Source: Escherichia phage P1. From it: a stretch of DNA of 3,703 nucleotides. The notes under the pieces were generated by a model, which was given only the letters and a program-made list of their open reading frames with translations, had not been told where the DNA came from and did not search any database. Shown here piece by piece: positions 1 through 3,703 of this stretch. A program made the position numbers and the translations under genes. The DNA lies in the sequence record X15639.1; one strand, given 5' to 3'. The first letter of the stretch is position 1. Every line of letters begins with the position of its first letter.

Positions 1-9
1 AATAAATTT
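1..9 (+). promoter_or_regulatory. Partial C1-type operator (Op51-like), truncated by the window edge
   Basis: The window opens with AATAAATTT, which equals the 3' nine bases of the 17-bp asymmetric P1 C1 operator consensus ATTGCTCTAATAAATTT (from memory). Its position upstream of the immI promoter fits, but a 9-mer AT-rich match could be chance. Confidence 0.3.
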
Positions 10-47
10 GTATTTTTAAGTCGCGAATGCTATCTTTTCGCATCATA

Positions 48-76
48 TTGACCTTTTAATCGTTCAGGCTTATAGT
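48..76 (+). promoter_or_regulatory. Sigma70-like promoter, candidate immI promoter driving c4-icd-ant
   Basis: TTGACC at 48-53 (5/6 to TTGACA), exact 17-bp spacer, TATAGT at 71-76 (5/6 to TATAAT), with an AT-rich stretch upstream. Predicted start near 83, ahead of the a1/b1 sites and c4. Confidence 0.45.
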
Positions 77-108
77 TCCACCGTCGTAGCAAATTCTGCG
101 ACCGGTTT

Positions 109-128
109 TGACAGCCTGAATGTTAGTG
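109..128 (+). promoter_or_regulatory. Upstream antisense target sites (a1/b1-like) for the c4 RNA
   Basis: TTGACAG at 109-115 and GTTAGTG at 122-128 are exact complements of CTGTCAA (246-252) and CACTAAC (233-239) in the c4 candidate. The same two motifs recur in the same order at 276-311. Confidence 0.45.
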
Positions 129-198
129 CGGACAACCGCAGATTTCCGATATTGCGGTATTTTTGTGTCCGTAAACCGCGTTACGCCCGAATTATGGT

Positions 199-270
199 GG
201 GGCGTGATGGGGAGGCTTCGGCCTGCTGGTTTCACTAACGCCAGTCTGTCAACCCTGTCACGTCCTGCCA
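199..270 (+). ncRNA. c4: c4-like antisense RNA (immI repressor RNA) with a tRNA-like acceptor end; boundaries approximate
   Basis: GGGGCGT at 199-205 can pair with ACGTCCT at 260-266 (7 bp including G-U pairs), followed by a single base and CCA at 268-270, resembling a tRNA acceptor stem, consistent with the RNase P processing reported for P1/P7 C4. Internal hairpins: AGGC-TTCG-GCCT at 213-224, and a stem 226-229/241-244 whose loop carries b' CACTAAC (233-239). a' CTGTCAA (246-252) follows. b' with flanks (228-240) is complementary over about 12-13 bp to 304-316, covering the icd Shine-Dalgarno. Confidence 0.5.
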
Positions 271-275
271 CCTGT

Positions 276-316
276 TTGACAGCGGGTAGCAGGTTGTTAA
301 ACCTGTTAGTGAGGCC
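276..316 (+). promoter_or_regulatory. Downstream antisense target sites (a2/b2-like) overlapping the icd ribosome-binding site
   Basis: TTGACAG at 276-282 (a2) and GTTAGTGAGGCC at 305-316 (b2). b2 contains the GAGG Shine-Dalgarno (311-314) located 8 nt before the ATG at 323, so c4 pairing would occlude ribosome binding. Confidence 0.5.
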
Positions 317-322
317 GTAACT

Positions 323-565
323 ATGGTTAATGCCAATCCTTGCACACGCCCAGAATTCATCTGGCGTTTCTATTCCTGTAAAAAACACCACTATCACTTC
401 GTTATCGCAGCAACTGAAGACGAAGCACGCTCTCAATTGCCTGATGGCCCTGCATTTTTACTGCCCGTTTTTCTACTAACTCGCGCAATTCACTTAGTTA
501 CTGGAACCTCCCCTTCTCTGCCGACGTTCAGGGGGGTTTATGAAAAAACCTCTCGTCACCCGTAA
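323..565 (+). CDS. icd: Icd-like small protein (80 aa), likely translationally coupled to ant
   Basis: ATG at 323 preceded by GAGG at 8-nt spacing. The ORF ends at 565, overlapping the ant start (540) by 26 nt in a different frame. Position between c4 and ant matches P1 immI order. No recognisable domain by eye; assignment is positional. Confidence 0.5.
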   Translation: MVNANPCTRPEFIWRFYSCKKHHYHFVIAATEDEARSQLPDGPAFLLPVFLLTRAIHLVTGTSPSLPTFRGVYEKTSRHP

Positions 566-1508
566 TGAAATAGCCGAAGCGATCGCTTTGCATACTGCCT
601 GTATGCCGACACGGGAGATCCCCGGCGCAATTGCTAACTATTTCATGATAACCAGGCGTTTTTATACCCGAACAGATAAGGCTGTGATCAACAGGCTACT
701 GATAGCCGAGATCAGGGATTATTTGATTGAACAAGGACGTCTACGTTACGCAACAGTGGCAGCAGAAATAAGAAAGGAGGCACATAGAATGACCGGTAAT
801 AATTTGAATGTTGAAAAAACAGCACCTGTTACGTCAGCTACGCCAGCACCAGCCGTGAATATCATCCCCAACACCGGAGACACAATCGACAGCCAAACAT
901 TGTTGAAGATGGTCAATGAGGCACGCAAGTTATGTGGAGAACCAGAGGTTAGAAACAATAAATTCATCGAAAAAATACTCGATGAACTTGAAGGTGAATT
1001 TTACACAAAAAGTGCAAAATCCCATGGCACAAGGGCTGGGCGCTCTTTTGAGGTCATCACCATGACCTACAAACAAGCCCTGCGAGTCGCCGCGCGCGAG
1101 TCAAAAGCGGTCCGCCGTTCGCTGATCGACAAACTGGAAGAATTGCAGCAGGCAAACTCCCCTGCCCCATCGATCCCCCAAACATTACCAGAAGCTCTAC
1201 GCCTGGCTGCCGAGTTGGCAGAACAGAAAATGCAGCTGGAACAACAGCTGGTGGCCGCAGCCCCTAAAGTAGATTTTGCCGACCGGGTATCAGTGGCTAA
1301 TGGAATCCTGATCGGGAACTTTGCAAAGGTCGTTGGACTTAAGCAAAACGCCCTTTTCTCATGGTTGCGCCAGAACGGCATTCTCATGGCTTTTGGTGCG
1401 CGCAAAAACGTACCGCGCCAACAGTACATCAACGCCGGGTATTTCACGGTGAAAGAAGTGGTGCTGGATGATGAAAATGGCTACCAGATACGGCTGACGC
1501 CCAATTAA
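540..1508 (+). CDS. ant: Antirepressor Ant1 (322 aa): N-terminal extension, Rha/AntA-like domain, ANT/KilAC C-terminal domain; C-terminus looks truncated by a frameshift
   Basis: ATG at 540 preceded by a G-run (531-536). Central region (around residues 115-200) resembles Rha/AntA-type phage regulatory domains. The C-terminal 111 aa (DNA 1173-1505) align at roughly 65% identity with the C-terminus of the downstream KilA-like protein. Pro/Ala/Thr-rich linkers separate the modules. Confidence 0.85.
   Translation: MKKPLVTRNEIAEAIALHTACMPTREIPGAIANYFMITRRFYTRTDKAVINRLLIAEIRDYLIEQGRLRYATVAAEIRKEAHRMTGNNLNVEKTAPVTSATPAPAVNIIPNTGDTIDSQTLLKMVNEARKLCGEPEVRNNKFIEKILDELEGEFYTKSAKSHGTRAGRSFEVITMTYKQALRVAARESKAVRRSLIDKLEELQQANSPAPSIPQTLPEALRLAAELAEQKMQLEQQLVAAAPKVDFADRVSVANGILIGNFAKVVGLKQNALFSWLRQNGILMAFGARKNVPRQQYINAGYFTVKEVVLDDENGYQIRLTPN
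789..1508 (+). CDS. ant: Ant2, in-frame internal initiation product of ant (239 aa as encoded)
   Basis: Perfect AAGGAGG at 774-780, 8 nt upstream of an in-frame ATG at 789. The product length (about 263 aa if the C-terminal frameshift is repaired) is close to the 266-aa KilA paralog. P1 ant is known to give nested Ant1/Ant2 products. Confidence 0.5.
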   Translation: MTGNNLNVEKTAPVTSATPAPAVNIIPNTGDTIDSQTLLKMVNEARKLCGEPEVRNNKFIEKILDELEGEFYTKSAKSHGTRAGRSFEVITMTYKQALRVAARESKAVRRSLIDKLEELQQANSPAPSIPQTLPEALRLAAELAEQKMQLEQQLVAAAPKVDFADRVSVANGILIGNFAKVVGLKQNALFSWLRQNGILMAFGARKNVPRQQYINAGYFTVKEVVLDDENGYQIRLTPN

Positions 1509-1594
1509 CGGGTAAAGGCCAGCAGTGGTTAACTCGCAAGCTACTTGATGCTGGTTTGTTAAAACCAGTAGCAATAGGTTAACAAAAGAAAAAA

Positions 1595-1620
1595 ACCTGC
1601 CAGCAAACTGGCAGGTTTCT
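1595..1620 (+). terminator. Rho-independent terminator downstream of ant
   Basis: Perfect 9-bp stem ACCTGCCAG (1595-1603) / CTGGCAGGT (1608-1616) with loop CAAA, followed by TTTCT. An A-run precedes the stem. Confidence 0.6.
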
Positions 1621-1660
1621 GAGCAGATCGTCCAACCCGATCTGGATCGGGTCAGAAAAA

Positions 1661-1677
1661 TTTGCTCTAATAAATTT
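1661..1677 (+). promoter_or_regulatory. C1 repressor operator-like site (Op53-like) upstream of kilA-repL
   Basis: TTTGCTCTAATAAATTT matches the C1 operator consensus ATTGCTCTAATAAATTT at 16 of 17 positions (consensus from memory), 70 bp upstream of the kilA ATG. TTGCTC within it could serve as the -35 of an overlapping promoter, but no convincing -10 was found. Confidence 0.55.
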
Positions 1678-1695
1678 CGTTTTCTAAGTGCAAAG

Positions 1696-1719
1696 AATCA
1701 CCATTTCGAGCTGGTGATT
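1696..1719. promoter_or_regulatory. Perfect 8-bp inverted repeat with 8-bp spacer in the kilA leader
   Basis: AATCACCA (1696-1703) and TGGTGATT (1712-1719), located between the Op53-like site and the kilA Shine-Dalgarno. Could be a protein-binding palindrome or a leader RNA hairpin. Confidence 0.3.
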
Positions 1720-1746
1720 GAAGGTTGATGCAAATTTGGAGAAAAA

Positions 1747-2547
1747 ATGCAACAAACATTCAATGCGGATATGAATATATCAAACCTTCATCAAAATGTC
1801 GATCCTTCAACCACTCTGCCCGTTATTTGTGGTGTTGAAATTACGACCGACCGCGCTGGCCGTTACAACCTTAATGCTCTACACAGAGCGAGCGGACTCG
1901 GTGCCCATAAAGCGCCAGCTCAATGGCTAAGAACGCTGTCAGCTAAACAGCTCATCGAAGAGCTTGAAAAAGAAACTATGCAGAATTGCATAGTTTCGTT
2001 CGAAGGCCGTGGCGGCGGCACTTTTGCCCATGAATTGCTCGCTGTGGAGTACGCAGGCTGGATTTCTCCCGCGTTTCGGCTGAAGGTAAACCAGACATTT
2101 ATCGACTATCGAACCGGAAGATTACAACCTGCTATTCCGCAGAGTCTCCCTGAAGCTCTCCGTTTGGCTGCCGACCTGGCAGAGCAAAAGCAACGGCTGG
2201 AGCAAAAAATGCTTATGGATGCACCTAAAGTCGAATTCGCTGAACGCGTTGCTACCGCCAGCGGGGTTCTAATCGGCAACTATGCCAAAGTGCTCGGCCT
2301 GGGCCAAAACTATCTCTTCACCTGGTTGCGTGATAACGGAATTCTGATCGCAACCGGTGAACGCAGGAACGTCCCCAAACAAGAATACATATCTCGTGGG
2401 TATTTCACCCTTAAAGAAACCGTGATCGATACAAGCAATGGAAGCAGGATTTCTTTCACGACTCGTATAACCGGCAAAGGTCAGCAGTGGCTGATGAAGC
2501 GATTGCTTGATGCTGGTGTGCTGGTACCTGTCGCGGCAACGCGCTAA
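1747..2547 (+). CDS. kilA: KilA-like protein (266 aa): KilA-N DNA-binding domain plus KilA-C/ANT C-terminal domain
   Basis: GGAG at 1738-1741, 5 nt before the ATG. Residues around 25-125 carry KilA-N hallmarks (YNLNALHRASG, PAQWLR, GRGGGTFAHELLAVEYAGWISPAFRLKV). The C-terminal 137 aa (DNA 2134-2544) is paralogous to the Ant C-terminus. Architecture matches phage P1 KilA. Confidence 0.88.
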   Translation: MQQTFNADMNISNLHQNVDPSTTLPVICGVEITTDRAGRYNLNALHRASGLGAHKAPAQWLRTLSAKQLIEELEKETMQNCIVSFEGRGGGTFAHELLAVEYAGWISPAFRLKVNQTFIDYRTGRLQPAIPQSLPEALRLAADLAEQKQRLEQKMLMDAPKVEFAERVATASGVLIGNYAKVLGLGQNYLFTWLRDNGILIATGERRNVPKQEYISRGYFTLKETVIDTSNGSRISFTTRITGKGQQWLMKRLLDAGVLVPVAATR

Positions 2548-2576
2548 CAGACGTAGTAAGAACCACCAGCATTGTA

Positions 2577-3422
2577 ATGCTGGCTAAAGTCACTTTCCTG
2601 AGCTGTATAACGATGAGCGATTTTACTTTTTCTGGCTATGAATTGGCCTGCTTTGTAACACACTCCGGTCTATCCCGTAGCGCCGGGCATATCCTGTCGC
2701 AATGTGCAAATCTCGCGGCAACAACCAGTGAATACTTCATTCACAAGCCTCACCGCCTGATCGCGGCAGAAACTGGTTATAGCCAATCAACCGTCGTTCG
2801 TGCATTCCGTGAAGCTGTAAACAAAGGAATTCTGTCTGTAGAGATTGTTATCGGCGATCACCGTGAACGTCGCGCTAACCTGTACCGGTTTACACCATCC
2901 TTTTTGGCCTTCGCACAACAAGCCAAAAATGCGCTGATAGAAAGCAAATTAAAGATCTCTTCAGCGGCAACCAAGGTTAAAGCTGTTCTCGCTAAGACAT
3001 TGGCTTTATTTAATTTTTTATCCACACCCCCATGTCAAAATGATACCCCCTCCCCCTGTCAGGATGACGTGGCAATAAAGAATAAGAAGTCACAAGTTAA
3101 AAAAACAAAAAGATCAGTTTCCGGCGGTGCCGGAACAACCAGCCTCAAAAAATTGACTTCATGGATCGCTAAGGCAAAAGCAAAGGCTGACAATCTGCGG
3201 TTATCCAAAAAACGCACTCAAAAACATGAGTTCAAGCAGAAAGTAGAGGCGGCTGCGCGGAAATATGCTTACCTGAAGAACAAGCGTTCGCCTGATATTG
3301 GCGGGATATCAAACTTCGATAACCTACCGCATTGCATGACGGTAAACGAAGCTCTTAATGCGGTTTTAGCCAAAAATAAAGATAACGAACAATGGGGTAT
3401 ACCGGCAGGATTCAGAGGGTAA
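2577..3422 (+). CDS. repL: RepL-like lytic replication protein (281 aa); alternative start at 2613 (269 aa)
   Basis: Long ORF directly after kilA, as in the P1 kilA-repL operon. Winged-helix-like segment (AAETGYSQSTVVRAFREAVNKGIL) and a Lys-rich basic C-terminal tail. No clear Shine-Dalgarno before either candidate ATG. Assignment rests on context and size, not on recognised sequence motifs. Confidence 0.7.
   Translation: MLAKVTFLSCITMSDFTFSGYELACFVTHSGLSRSAGHILSQCANLAATTSEYFIHKPHRLIAAETGYSQSTVVRAFREAVNKGILSVEIVIGDHRERRANLYRFTPSFLAFAQQAKNALIESKLKISSAATKVKAVLAKTLALFNFLSTPPCQNDTPSPCQDDVAIKNKKSQVKKTKRSVSGGAGTTSLKKLTSWIAKAKAKADNLRLSKKRTQKHEFKQKVEAAARKYAYLKNKRSPDIGGISNFDNLPHCMTVNEALNAVLAKNKDNEQWGIPAGFRG
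3001..3070. other. Candidate origin (oriL-like) inside repL: AT-rich tract, perfect DnaA box, imperfect direct repeats
   Basis: AT-rich stretch at 3004-3020. TTATCCACA at 3018-3026 is a perfect DnaA-box 9-mer. Imperfect direct repeats CCCCCATGTCAAAATGAT (3027-3044) and CCCCCTGTCAGGATGAC (3052-3068). The P1 lytic origin is reported to lie within repL (from memory). Confidence 0.35.
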
Positions 3423-3424
3423 TG

Positions 3425-3441
3425 AATTGCTCTAATTATAA
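3425..3441 (+). promoter_or_regulatory. Weak C1 operator-like site just after the repL stop
   Basis: ATTGCTCTAATTATAAC: the first 11 bases match the consensus left part ATTGCTCTAAT exactly, and the right part diverges (about 12 of 17 overall). Confidence 0.25.
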
Positions 3442-3464
3442 CCATGCATACTTTCAACACCTCT

Positions 3465-3509
3465 AGTTTGCCATGAGGCAAACTCATAGGTGTCCTGGTA
3501 AGAGGACAC
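3465..3509 (+). other. Two tandem perfect stem-loops downstream of repL, possible terminator or RNA processing structure
   Basis: AGTTTGCC (3465-3472) / GGCAAACT (3477-3484) with loop ATGA; GTGTCCT (3490-3496) / AGGACAC (3503-3509) with loop GGTAAG. No U-tract follows, so not a canonical intrinsic terminator. Confidence 0.3.
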
Positions 3510-3703
3510 TGTTGCCAAAACTGGACGCCCCATTATTGCAATTAATAAACAACTAACGGACAATTCTACCTAACAATAAGTGGAGTTAACATGTTGAACC
3601 GAAGAACATTTAATGTATTCTGCGATGAATCCTGTCACCTACTAAATAATTATATAATAAGGTCATGGTATTAAATACGCTTTAATATTCCGGTCTGACT
3701 CTT

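What the first reader, a model, noticed from the sequence alone, without database searches (positions are those of the whole stretch)
1661..1677. C1-operator-like site places kilA-repL under prophage repressor control
A 16-of-17 match to the C1 operator consensus sits just upstream of kilA. A partial match at 1-9 and a weaker one at 3425-3441 suggest several repressor sites in the window. If functional, C1 would silence the lethal KilA function and lytic replication in the lysogen. The 18-nt sequence here has an extra T relative to the consensus, which may alter affinity.
Basis: partly seen in the sequence, partly recalled or inferred. Interest (0 to 1): 0.45.

Follow-up and report, generated by a model that had tools for sequence, protein, structure and literature searches.

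The report
Known P1 operator Op53 upstream of kilA
The flagged 17-base site is the already described C1 repressor operator Op53 of bacteriophage P1, which overlaps the promoter of the kilA-repL lytic replication operon and keeps it off in the lysogen, so the finding is correct but ordinary.

Summary
The window is bacteriophage P1 DNA: 99.8% identical to AF234172 positions 48148-51819, and almost certainly the 1989 deposit X15639. It covers c4-icd-ant-kilA-repL and the start of rlfA.

The 17-mer TTTGCTCTAATAAATTT at 1661-1677 is real. It matches the C1 operator consensus ATTGCTCTAATAAATTT at 16 of 17 positions, where about 4e-5 such matches are expected by chance. It maps exactly onto the GenBank feature [quoted passage not shown].

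The site contains the -10 hexamer (TCTAAT, 1666-1671) of promoter P53/PkilA. The most likely mechanism is therefore that bound C1 blocks RNA polymerase.

- 1-9 is the 3' end of Op51 (Oc4).
- The weak site is Op55 (Orlf).

The "extra T" is better described as an A-to-T substitution at operator position 1. That T is conserved in P7 and in all 80 related viral contigs examined.

C1 binding could not be tested here. It rests on the record annotation and on cited literature. C1 is also not the only control: a constitutive antisense promoter (P53as) and three GATC sites are annotated nearby.

Verdict: observation confirmed, interpretation supported, already known, low interest. One side observation: homology among P1-like elements breaks inside Op51 and Op55.

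The parts
1661..1677 (+). C1 operator Op53 (OrepL), TTTGCTCTAATAAATTT; the finding itself
   Evidence: 16/17 to the consensus. Maps to AF234172 49810-49826, annotated as a C1-controlled operator controlling kilA and repL. Scores 21.4 bits in a weight matrix built from the 17 annotated operators outside the window. Identical in P7 and in 77 of 80 related loci; the other 3 carry G4A.
1643..1671 (+). sigma-70 promoter P53 (PkilA): -35 TGGATC 1643-1648, 17-nt spacer, -10 TCTAAT 1666-1671. The -10 lies inside the operator.
   Evidence: Annotated in AF234172 (49792-49820) and in X15638. Hexamers read. The generic promoter scan did not call it, because the -35 matches only 3/6.
1626..1648 (.). Three GATC (Dam) sites at 1626, 1639 and 1645; the last lies inside the -35 hexamer. 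Two of them sit in the inverted repeat ACCCGATC-TG-GATCGGGT at 1635-1652.
   Evidence: Annotated as Dam methylation sites 1-3 in the regulatory region of kilA. Positions. The hairpin appears in the fold of the antisense strand.
1747..2547 (+). kilA (266 aa; KilA-N plus KilAC domains), first gene of the repressed operon
   Evidence: ORF. Pfam KilA-N 2.8e-21 and ANT/KilAC 2e-32. Annotated as KilA, 'product can kill host'.
2577..3422 (+). repL (281 aa), lytic replication initiator; oriL lies within it
   Evidence: ORF. Annotated as RepL, with a rep_origin feature over the same span. No Pfam hit.
1774..1802 (-). Antisense promoter P53as (PaskilA): -35 TCGACA, -10 TATATT. Annotated start site at window 1766, reading leftwards across the operator and promoter.
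   Evidence: Annotated in AF234172 (49923-49951; start site 49915). Found independently by the promoter scan at 10/12.
1591..1620 (.). 13-bp GC-rich hairpin with T-runs on both strands. It is the likely terminator of the ant transcript (+) and of the P53as antisense RNA (-).
   Evidence: Terminator scan. The fold of 1766->1581 on the minus strand gives -62.6 kcal/mol, z = -5.9, with this hairpin followed by a U-run at the 3' end. The terminator role is inferred.
1..9 (+). 3' nine bases of C1 operator Op51 (Oc4), cut by the window edge; controls the c4-icd-ant operon
   Evidence: AF234172 48140-48156 reads AATGCTCTAATAAATTT, and the window starts at 48148.
3426..3442 (+). C1 operator Op55 (Orlf), ATTGCTCTAATTATAAC; weak, 12/17, between repL and rlfA
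   Evidence: AF234172 51575-51591. Scores 15.9 bits, no better than two unannotated P1 sites. Only the first 11 nt are conserved among relatives.
190..275 (+). c4 antisense RNA gene (immI); context only
   Evidence: Rfam RF01695, 68.8 bits, E = 1.6e-12. Annotated as c4 in AF234172.
540..1508 (+). ant1/ant2 antirepressor gene; context only. In this window it is truncated by a 1-base difference from the complete genome at 1499/1500.
   Evidence: ORF. Pfam KilAC. The alignment shows CCCC->CCC at 1499/1500.

Best explanation
The site is operator Op53 (OrepL) of bacteriophage P1. It is a 17-bp asymmetric binding site for the phage's primary repressor C1, which is encoded about 44 kb away in immC.

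The operator spans the -10 hexamer of the sigma-70 promoter P53 (PkilA) and the bases down to the probable transcription start. Bound C1, helped by the co-repressor Lxc, therefore excludes RNA polymerase. This keeps the kilA-repL operon silent in the plasmid prophage. No KilA toxicity arises, no RepL is made, and oriL is not activated by transcription.

When C1 is inactivated by Coi, by Ant1/Ant2, or by heat in c1.100, P53 fires and lytic replication starts.

What is shown here: the sequence identity, the match to the consensus, the overlap with the annotated promoter, and conservation in relatives.

What is taken from annotation and literature: C1 binding and repression.

What is inferred: the occlusion geometry.
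For: - The window is 99.8% identical to P1 AF234172 48148-51819.
- Window 1661-1677 equals record 49810-49826, annotated as 'phage repressor C1 ... operator OrepL; former Op53; controls expression of kilA and repL'.
- The same sequence has the same annotation in P7.
- In the whole P1 genome, all 10 sites within 2 mismatches of the consensus are annotated C1 operators. Op53 is one of six with 1 mismatch.
- The leave-out weight matrix gives 21.4 bits, rank 13 genome-wide, among the annotated operators.
- The -10 TCTAAT (1666-1671) is operator positions 6-11.
- The operator is present in all 80 related IMG/VR loci (77 identical, 3 with G4A). The surrounding 183 nt are at least 95% identical in 510 plasmids.
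[quoted passage not shown] Op53, which overlaps the promoter'.
- PMC4713147: kilA is listed among the C1-controlled genes induced after thermal induction of P1Cm c1.100.
- PMC8546580 gives the 17-bp asymmetric consensus and states that C1 controls RepL expression.
Against: - No binding or expression experiment can be run here. The primary papers (Eliason & Sternberg 1987; Velleman 1987; Hansen 1989; Heinrich 1995; Lobocka 2004) are not in the held library, so the experimental basis is second-hand.
- Position 1 is T, a base seen in none of the other 17 operators used for the matrix. Affinity may therefore differ from a consensus site.
- The relatives are too close (at least 95% identity) for conservation to prove selection on the operator.
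- The generic promoter scan does not call P53.
Confidence: 0.96

Rival explanations
1. The match is a chance AT-rich sequence, or simply the -10 region of a promoter, with no repressor bound.
For: The consensus is AT-rich and itself contains -10-like and -35-like hexamers. A single 17-mer in 3.7 kb was at first judged from memory alone.
Against: About 4e-5 matches with up to 1 mismatch are expected. Only 4 of 200 shuffles gave any hit with up to 3 mismatches. The site is exactly the annotated Op53 of P1 and Op(rep) of P7. Genome-wide, every site with up to 2 mismatches is a known operator. The literature states that C1 represses here.
Confidence: 0.01
2. The operator works mainly as one anchor of C1-mediated DNA loops or cooperative complexes with Op51 (1.67 kb upstream) and Op55 (1.77 kb downstream), or as a roadblock to read-through from the ant operon. 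Simple occlusion of P53 would then be secondary.
For: Three operators in the same orientation bracket the immI-lytic replicon block. From my own knowledge, C1-mediated looping has been described for the c1 operators (Heinzel et al. 1994); I did not verify this here. The ant operon ends only about 80 nt upstream, and PMC8201110 reports that ant1 and kilA are jointly very highly expressed in P1vir.
Against: A strong hairpin terminator (1591-1620) separates ant from P53. The operator sits on the -10 hexamer, which is enough for occlusion. Op55 is weak, and only its first 11 nt are conserved. The records call all three operators 'monovalent'.
Confidence: 0.05
3. Silencing of kilA-repL in the lysogen depends mainly on the constitutive antisense RNA from P53as (and on the Dam methylation state of the -35 region), with C1 at Op53 playing a minor part.
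For: P53as and its start site are annotated, and the promoter scores 10/12. The antisense transcript covers the kilA 5' end, the operator and P53, and it folds strongly (z = -5.9). Three GATC sites lie in or next to the -35.
Against: The literature attributes repression to C1 at Op53. kilA is listed among the C1-controlled genes induced when thermosensitive C1 is inactivated. From my own recollection of the Heinrich et al. 1995 abstract, C1 strongly represses P53 while P53as is unaffected and only modulates; I did not verify this here.
Confidence: 0.03

Closest known systems
Bacteriophage P1 Op53.P53 (OrepL/PkilA) operator-promoter of the lytic replicon (GenBank AF234172 49792-49826; X15638)
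   Same: It is the same DNA. The operator, promoter, kilA, repL and the flanking operators map base for base.
   Different: Nothing in the operator region differs. Elsewhere the window differs from the complete genome only by two C-run length differences (447/448 and 1499/1500), a 2-base insertion, and a divergent 3' end. These are probably old sequencing errors.
Bacteriophage P7 Op(rep) upstream of kilA-repL (AF503408 52527-52543)
   Same: Identical 17-mer TTTGCTCTAATAAATTT, same flanks, same position relative to kilA, and the same annotation as a C1-controlled operator.
   Different: P7 is about 96% identical over the window. Its Op(c4) differs at positions 1-2 (TCT versus AAT), with an unrelated upstream flank.
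Other P1 C1 operators (e.g. Op72a at ban, Op99a-e at c1/coi, Op21 at ssb, Op94 at lpa)
   Same: Same 17-bp asymmetric consensus, and each overlaps or abuts a sigma-70 promoter.
   Different: Op53 has T at position 1, where the others have A or C. It overlaps the -10, whereas several others overlap the -35 (for example OpmgRa, Obana). It is monovalent, unlike the bivalent Op72ab and Op99ab.
Lambda CI at OR/OL (works-like comparison only)
   Same: A prophage repressor occludes an early lytic promoter, which keeps replication and host-killing functions off.
   Different: Lambda operators are two-fold symmetric, clustered and bound cooperatively by dimers. P1 C1 sites are asymmetric and scattered over about 20 places in a 94-kb genome. 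No family relationship is claimed.

Membership tests
P1 C1 repressor operator (specifically Op53/OrepL) | 17-bp asymmetric sequence matching ATTGCTCTAATAAATTT | tested here: met
   16/17. 21.4 bits in a matrix built from the 17 annotated operators outside the window, within the range of annotated operators (15.3-28.2 bits).
P1 C1 repressor operator (specifically Op53/OrepL) | Same genomic position as the described Op53 in P1 | tested here: met
   Window 1661-1677 equals AF234172 49810-49826, the annotated OrepL/Op53.
P1 C1 repressor operator (specifically Op53/OrepL) | Overlaps or abuts a sigma-70 promoter that it controls | tested here: met
   The -10 TCTAAT (1666-1671) of annotated P53/PkilA lies within the operator. 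The generic scan did not call P53 because of its weak -35.
P1 C1 repressor operator (specifically Op53/OrepL) | A c1 repressor gene is present in the same genome | tested here: met
   c1.100 lies at AF234172 93231-94082. It is outside the 3.7-kb window.
P1 C1 repressor operator (specifically Op53/OrepL) | C1 protein binds the site and represses transcription | not testable with these tools
   Known only second-hand: PMC9948254 citing Eliason & Sternberg 1987 and Velleman et al. 1987, and kilA listed among C1-controlled genes induced after thermal induction of P1Cm c1.100 in PMC4713147.
P1 lytic replicon (kilA-repL-oriL) | kilA (KilA-N + KilAC) followed by repL downstream of the operator-promoter | tested here: met
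   ORFs 1747-2547 and 2577-3422. Pfam domains for KilA. 100% protein identity to P1 RepL.
   12/17 and 15.9 bits. Two unannotated P1 sites score as high or higher (18.4 and 15.9 bits), and simulated windows reach 17.9 bits. It is annotated as an operator in P1 and P7, but only its first 11 nt are conserved in relatives.

The most novel reading that the evidence does not exclude
The operators that flank this block may double as recombination 'linker' sequences.

Among 80 P1-like viral contigs, the conserved c4-icd-ant-kilA-repL module is bounded by Op51 and Op55, and homology to alternative flanking modules breaks inside those operators. At Op51 it breaks after position 3. At Op55 it breaks after position 11.

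This would fit module exchange by recombination between the roughly 20 dispersed copies of the operator core.

Op53 itself shows nothing novel. Its conserved position-1 T could at most tune its affinity for C1.
Probability: 0.15. Interest if true: 0.35.

Novelty: already known. Interest (0 to 1): 0.05.

Why it matters
It matters only as a check on the first stage.

The site has practical relevance. The C1-controlled P1 lytic replicon (repL/oriL) is the inducible amplification module of P1/PAC cloning vectors and of recent RepL-based copy-number tools.

No open question is advanced. The only mildly new lead is the coincidence of mosaic breakpoints with operators Op51 and Op55 in P1-like plasmid prophages.

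Tried and rejected
- Primary papers. I tried to read Lobocka 2004 (PMC523184), Heinrich 1995 (PMC306884) and Yarmolinsky 1989 (PMC210280). None is held, so experimental claims rest on later open-access papers and on GenBank notes.
- Literature search. A whole-word search for Op53/P53as/Op55/Op51 returned only unrelated conference abstracts.
- Generic promoter scan. It did not call P53, whose -35 is 3/6. It did recover P53as and P51b. I did not count the miss as evidence against P53.
- Comparative footprinting. The 80 IMG/VR loci and 510 plasmids are at least 95% identical in the region. Conservation of the operator is consistent with function but not discriminating.
- Distant comparison. Phage D6 has a 27%-identical RepL but no P1-type operator upstream. 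It has a different palindrome there, so the arrangement could not be traced beyond the P1/P7 group.
- 'Extra T' as a real insertion. I set this aside as unnecessary. A position-1 substitution explains the sequence and agrees with both annotations. In Op51 of relatives, positions 1-3 vary freely while positions 4-17 are invariant, which suggests the 5' edge is weakly constrained.
- Rfam. No family covers the P53as antisense RNA; only C4 and its targets were found.

Full report
**1. What the window is**

A megablast of the whole window against phage records gives bacteriophage P1. AF234172, AF234173 and NC_005856 match at 99.8% over window 1-3672, and P7 and other P1-like phages match at 95-97%.

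A pairwise alignment places the window on AF234172 48148-51830. The differences are:
- two one-base differences in C runs (CCCC->CCC at window 447/448 and 1499/1500);
- a 2-base insertion near 3651;
- a cluster of mostly G->A mismatches from 3648;
- no alignment after 3683.

The P1 record itself notes that 48148..51819 is '99 pct identical (5 gaps)' to GenBank X15639 (locus PP1REPLG). The window is therefore almost certainly that 1989 deposit, with its sequencing errors.

Gene content is as follows:
- The 3' end of operator Op51.
- Promoters P51a and P51b.
- The c4 antisense RNA (Rfam RF01695, 68.8 bits) and its a1/b1 targets (RF03163).
- icd.
- ant1/ant2. The ORF at 540-1508 is truncated here by the 1499/1500 difference. 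It has a Pfam KilAC domain.
- kilA at 1747-2547, with KilA-N and KilAC domains.
- repL at 2577-3422, 100% identical to P1 RepL.
- The start of rlfA at 3591.

**2. The observation**

Window 1661-1677 reads TTTGCTCTAATAAATTT. Against ATTGCTCTAATAAATTT this is 16/17, and it is the only hit with up to 3 mismatches on either strand. The tool expects 0.02 such hits, and 4 of 200 shuffles gave any. From base composition I compute 4.3e-5 expected matches with up to 1 mismatch.

[quoted passage not shown] It is also the majority base at each position of the 20 operators annotated in AF234172.

All 10 sites with up to 2 mismatches are annotated C1 operators, and Op53 is one of six with a single mismatch.

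A weight matrix built from the 17 operators outside the window scores the site at 21.4 bits. That is rank 13 in the genome, inside the block of annotated operators. The best score in 200 simulated windows averaged 6.7 bits (sd 3.3) and never exceeded 17.9 bits.

**3. Identity of the three sites**

| Window position | Record position (AF234172) | Annotation | Sequence |
|---|---|---|---|
| 1661-1677 | 49810-49826 | 'monovalent C1-controlled operator OrepL; corresponds to former Op53; controls expression of kilA and repL' | TTTGCTCTAATAAATTT |
| 1-9 | last 9 nt of 48140-48156 | Oc4 / Op51 | AATGCTCTAATAAATTT (full site) |
| 3426-3442 | 51575-51591 | Orlf / Op55 | ATTGCTCTAATTATAAC |

P7 carries the same three annotated operators. 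Its Op(rep) is identical to the window's site, flanks included.

**4. Anatomy and mechanism**

The annotated promoter P53/PkilA spans window 1643-1671. Its -35 is TGGATC (1643-1648), the spacer is 17 nt, and its -10 is TCTAAT (1666-1671).

The -10 hexamer is operator positions 6-11, and the operator runs on to about the expected start site. I infer that start from the -10 position at about 1678; it was not measured. The straightforward mechanism is therefore steric exclusion of RNA polymerase by bound C1. kilA starts 69 nt downstream of the operator, behind a GGAG ribosome-binding site.

The literature supports this:
- PMC4713147 lists kilA among the C1-controlled genes induced after thermal induction of P1Cm c1.100.
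- PMC8546580 says that C1 controls RepL expression.

C1 itself is encoded far outside the window, at record 93231-94082, and acts in trans. Binding was not testable here.

**5. Other control elements around the site**

- Antisense promoter. P53as/PaskilA lies on the minus strand at 1802-1774 (TCGACA, 17 nt, TATATT), with an annotated start at window 1766. The generic scan found it independently at 10/12.
- Antisense transcript. It runs back across the kilA 5' end, the operator and P53 to a 13-bp hairpin at 1620-1591 followed by a T-run. Folded as RNA, 1766->1581 gives -62.6 kcal/mol against -38.6 +/- 4.1 for shuffles, z = -5.9.
- Terminator. The same hairpin, read on the + strand, probably terminates the ant transcript about 40 nt before P53. 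This is inferred.
- Dam sites. Three GATC sites (1626, 1639, 1645) are annotated as Dam sites in the kilA regulatory region. The last is inside the -35 hexamer. Two of them form the perfect inverted repeat ACCCGATC-TG-GATCGGGT at 1635-1652.

C1 at Op53 is thus the principal switch but not the only layer of control. From my own memory, not verified here, Heinrich et al. 1995 (NAR 23:1468) reported that C1 strongly represses P53, and that P53as is constitutive and dampens P53.

**6. The 'extra T'**

The 18-mer 1660-1677, ATTTGCTCTAATAAATTT, can be written as the consensus plus one T. The simpler description is a 17-mer with A1->T, and both GenBank annotations use it.

T at position 1 occurs in none of the other 17 operators (A in 15, C in 2). 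It is nevertheless fixed in this site: P7 has it, and so do all 80 related loci. The only variant among those loci is G4->A, in 3 of them.

In Op51 of the same loci, positions 1-3 vary freely (AAT, TCT, CCT, ACT, TTC, GTT) while positions 4-17 are invariant. This suggests that the 5' edge contributes little. I therefore expect at most a modest effect on affinity. That is an inference and would need a binding measurement.

**7. Comparative reach**

The 183 nt around the operator are at least 95% identical in 510 PLSDB plasmids, mostly from E. coli, with some from Salmonella and Klebsiella. The 80 IMG/VR loci found with KilA are all at least 99% identical in protein. Conservation is therefore consistent with function but not informative.

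The more distant phage D6 has a 27%-identical RepL next to icd. It has no P1-type operator upstream. Instead it has a different palindrome and, curiously, also three GATC sites.

**8. Side observations**

Mosaic breakpoints. Homology among P1-like elements breaks inside the flanking operators.
- Left of Op51, three unrelated flank types join at ...|GCTCTAATAAATTT.
- Right of Op55, 64 of 76 loci switch to unrelated DNA immediately after ATTGCTCTAAT. That DNA carries different genes.
- This could mean recombination within the dispersed operator copies. It could equally mean only that the operator is a conserved island.
- It is the most novel reading I cannot exclude. I give it a low probability, and it does not concern Op53 itself.

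Op55 strength. On sequence alone Op55 is no better than two unannotated P1 sites, at record 1485 (18.4 bits) and record 17166 (15.9 bits).

3' extension. Many operators, including Op51 and Op53, are followed by a T-rich stretch of the form nnaTTTTTAAg.

**9. Verdict**

The feature is the long-known Op53.P53 operator-promoter of the P1 lytic replicon. Novelty: already known. Interest: low.

Noticed in passing
window 1-9 and 3426-3442; loci L005-L084: Homology among P1-like elements breaks inside the two flanking C1 operators. Three unrelated left-flank types abut Op51 at ...|GCTCTAATAAATTT, with positions 1-3 variable. In 64 of 76 loci the DNA switches to an unrelated module right after the first 11 nt of Op55 (ATTGCTCTAAT|). 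These may be recombination junctions at operator cores, or merely conserved islands.
   Followed up: partly
window 447/448, 1499/1500, 3648-3703: The window differs from the complete P1 genome by CCCC->CCC in icd and in ant1. The ant1 difference truncates the ORF to 322 aa, against 347 aa in the genome. There is also a 2-base insertion and a run of mostly G->A differences at the 3' end, with no alignment after 3683. This looks like 1989-era sequencing error in deposit X15639.
   Followed up: partly
window 1635-1652: A perfect 8-bp inverted repeat, ACCCGATC-TG-GATCGGGT, lies over the -35 of P53 and carries two of the three Dam sites. Most relatives have G1650A, which breaks it, so it is probably not a conserved protein site.
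   Followed up: partly
window 1766->1581, minus strand: The region of the annotated P53as antisense transcript folds unusually stably (-62.6 kcal/mol, z = -5.9) and ends in a hairpin plus U-run at 1620-1581. No Rfam family covers it.
   Followed up: partly
window 1-21 and 1669-1689; P1 operators genome-wide (L001, L003, L004): Similarity between Op51 and Op53 extends 12 nt beyond the 17-mer (GTATTTTTAAGT versus CGTTTTCTAAGT). Across the 20 annotated operators, a T-rich 3' extension carries 0.5-1.0 bit per column. It may be an extended contact, a bending element or a promoter element.
   Followed up: partly
AF234172 record 1485-1501 and 17166-17182 (L003): Two unannotated sites, ATTGCTATAATTATTTG (18.4 bits, just upstream of c8) and ATTGCCCTAATGTATTT (15.9 bits, inside darB), score as high as or higher than annotated Op55 and Op99c in the operator weight matrix.
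   Followed up: no
L085 (phage D6) 2720-2925: Upstream of D6's distant repL homologue (27% aa identity) there is no P1-type C1 operator. There is a palindrome, ATAGTGTATTTATATACACTGT, and three GATC sites, which echoes the GATC cluster at P1 P53.
   Followed up: no
window 1437-1572 versus 2398-2534: The 3' ends of ant and kilA are diverged direct repeats at the DNA level (76-87% over short blocks, spacing about 961 nt). This reflects the shared KilAC domain of Ant1/2 and KilA.
   Followed up: no
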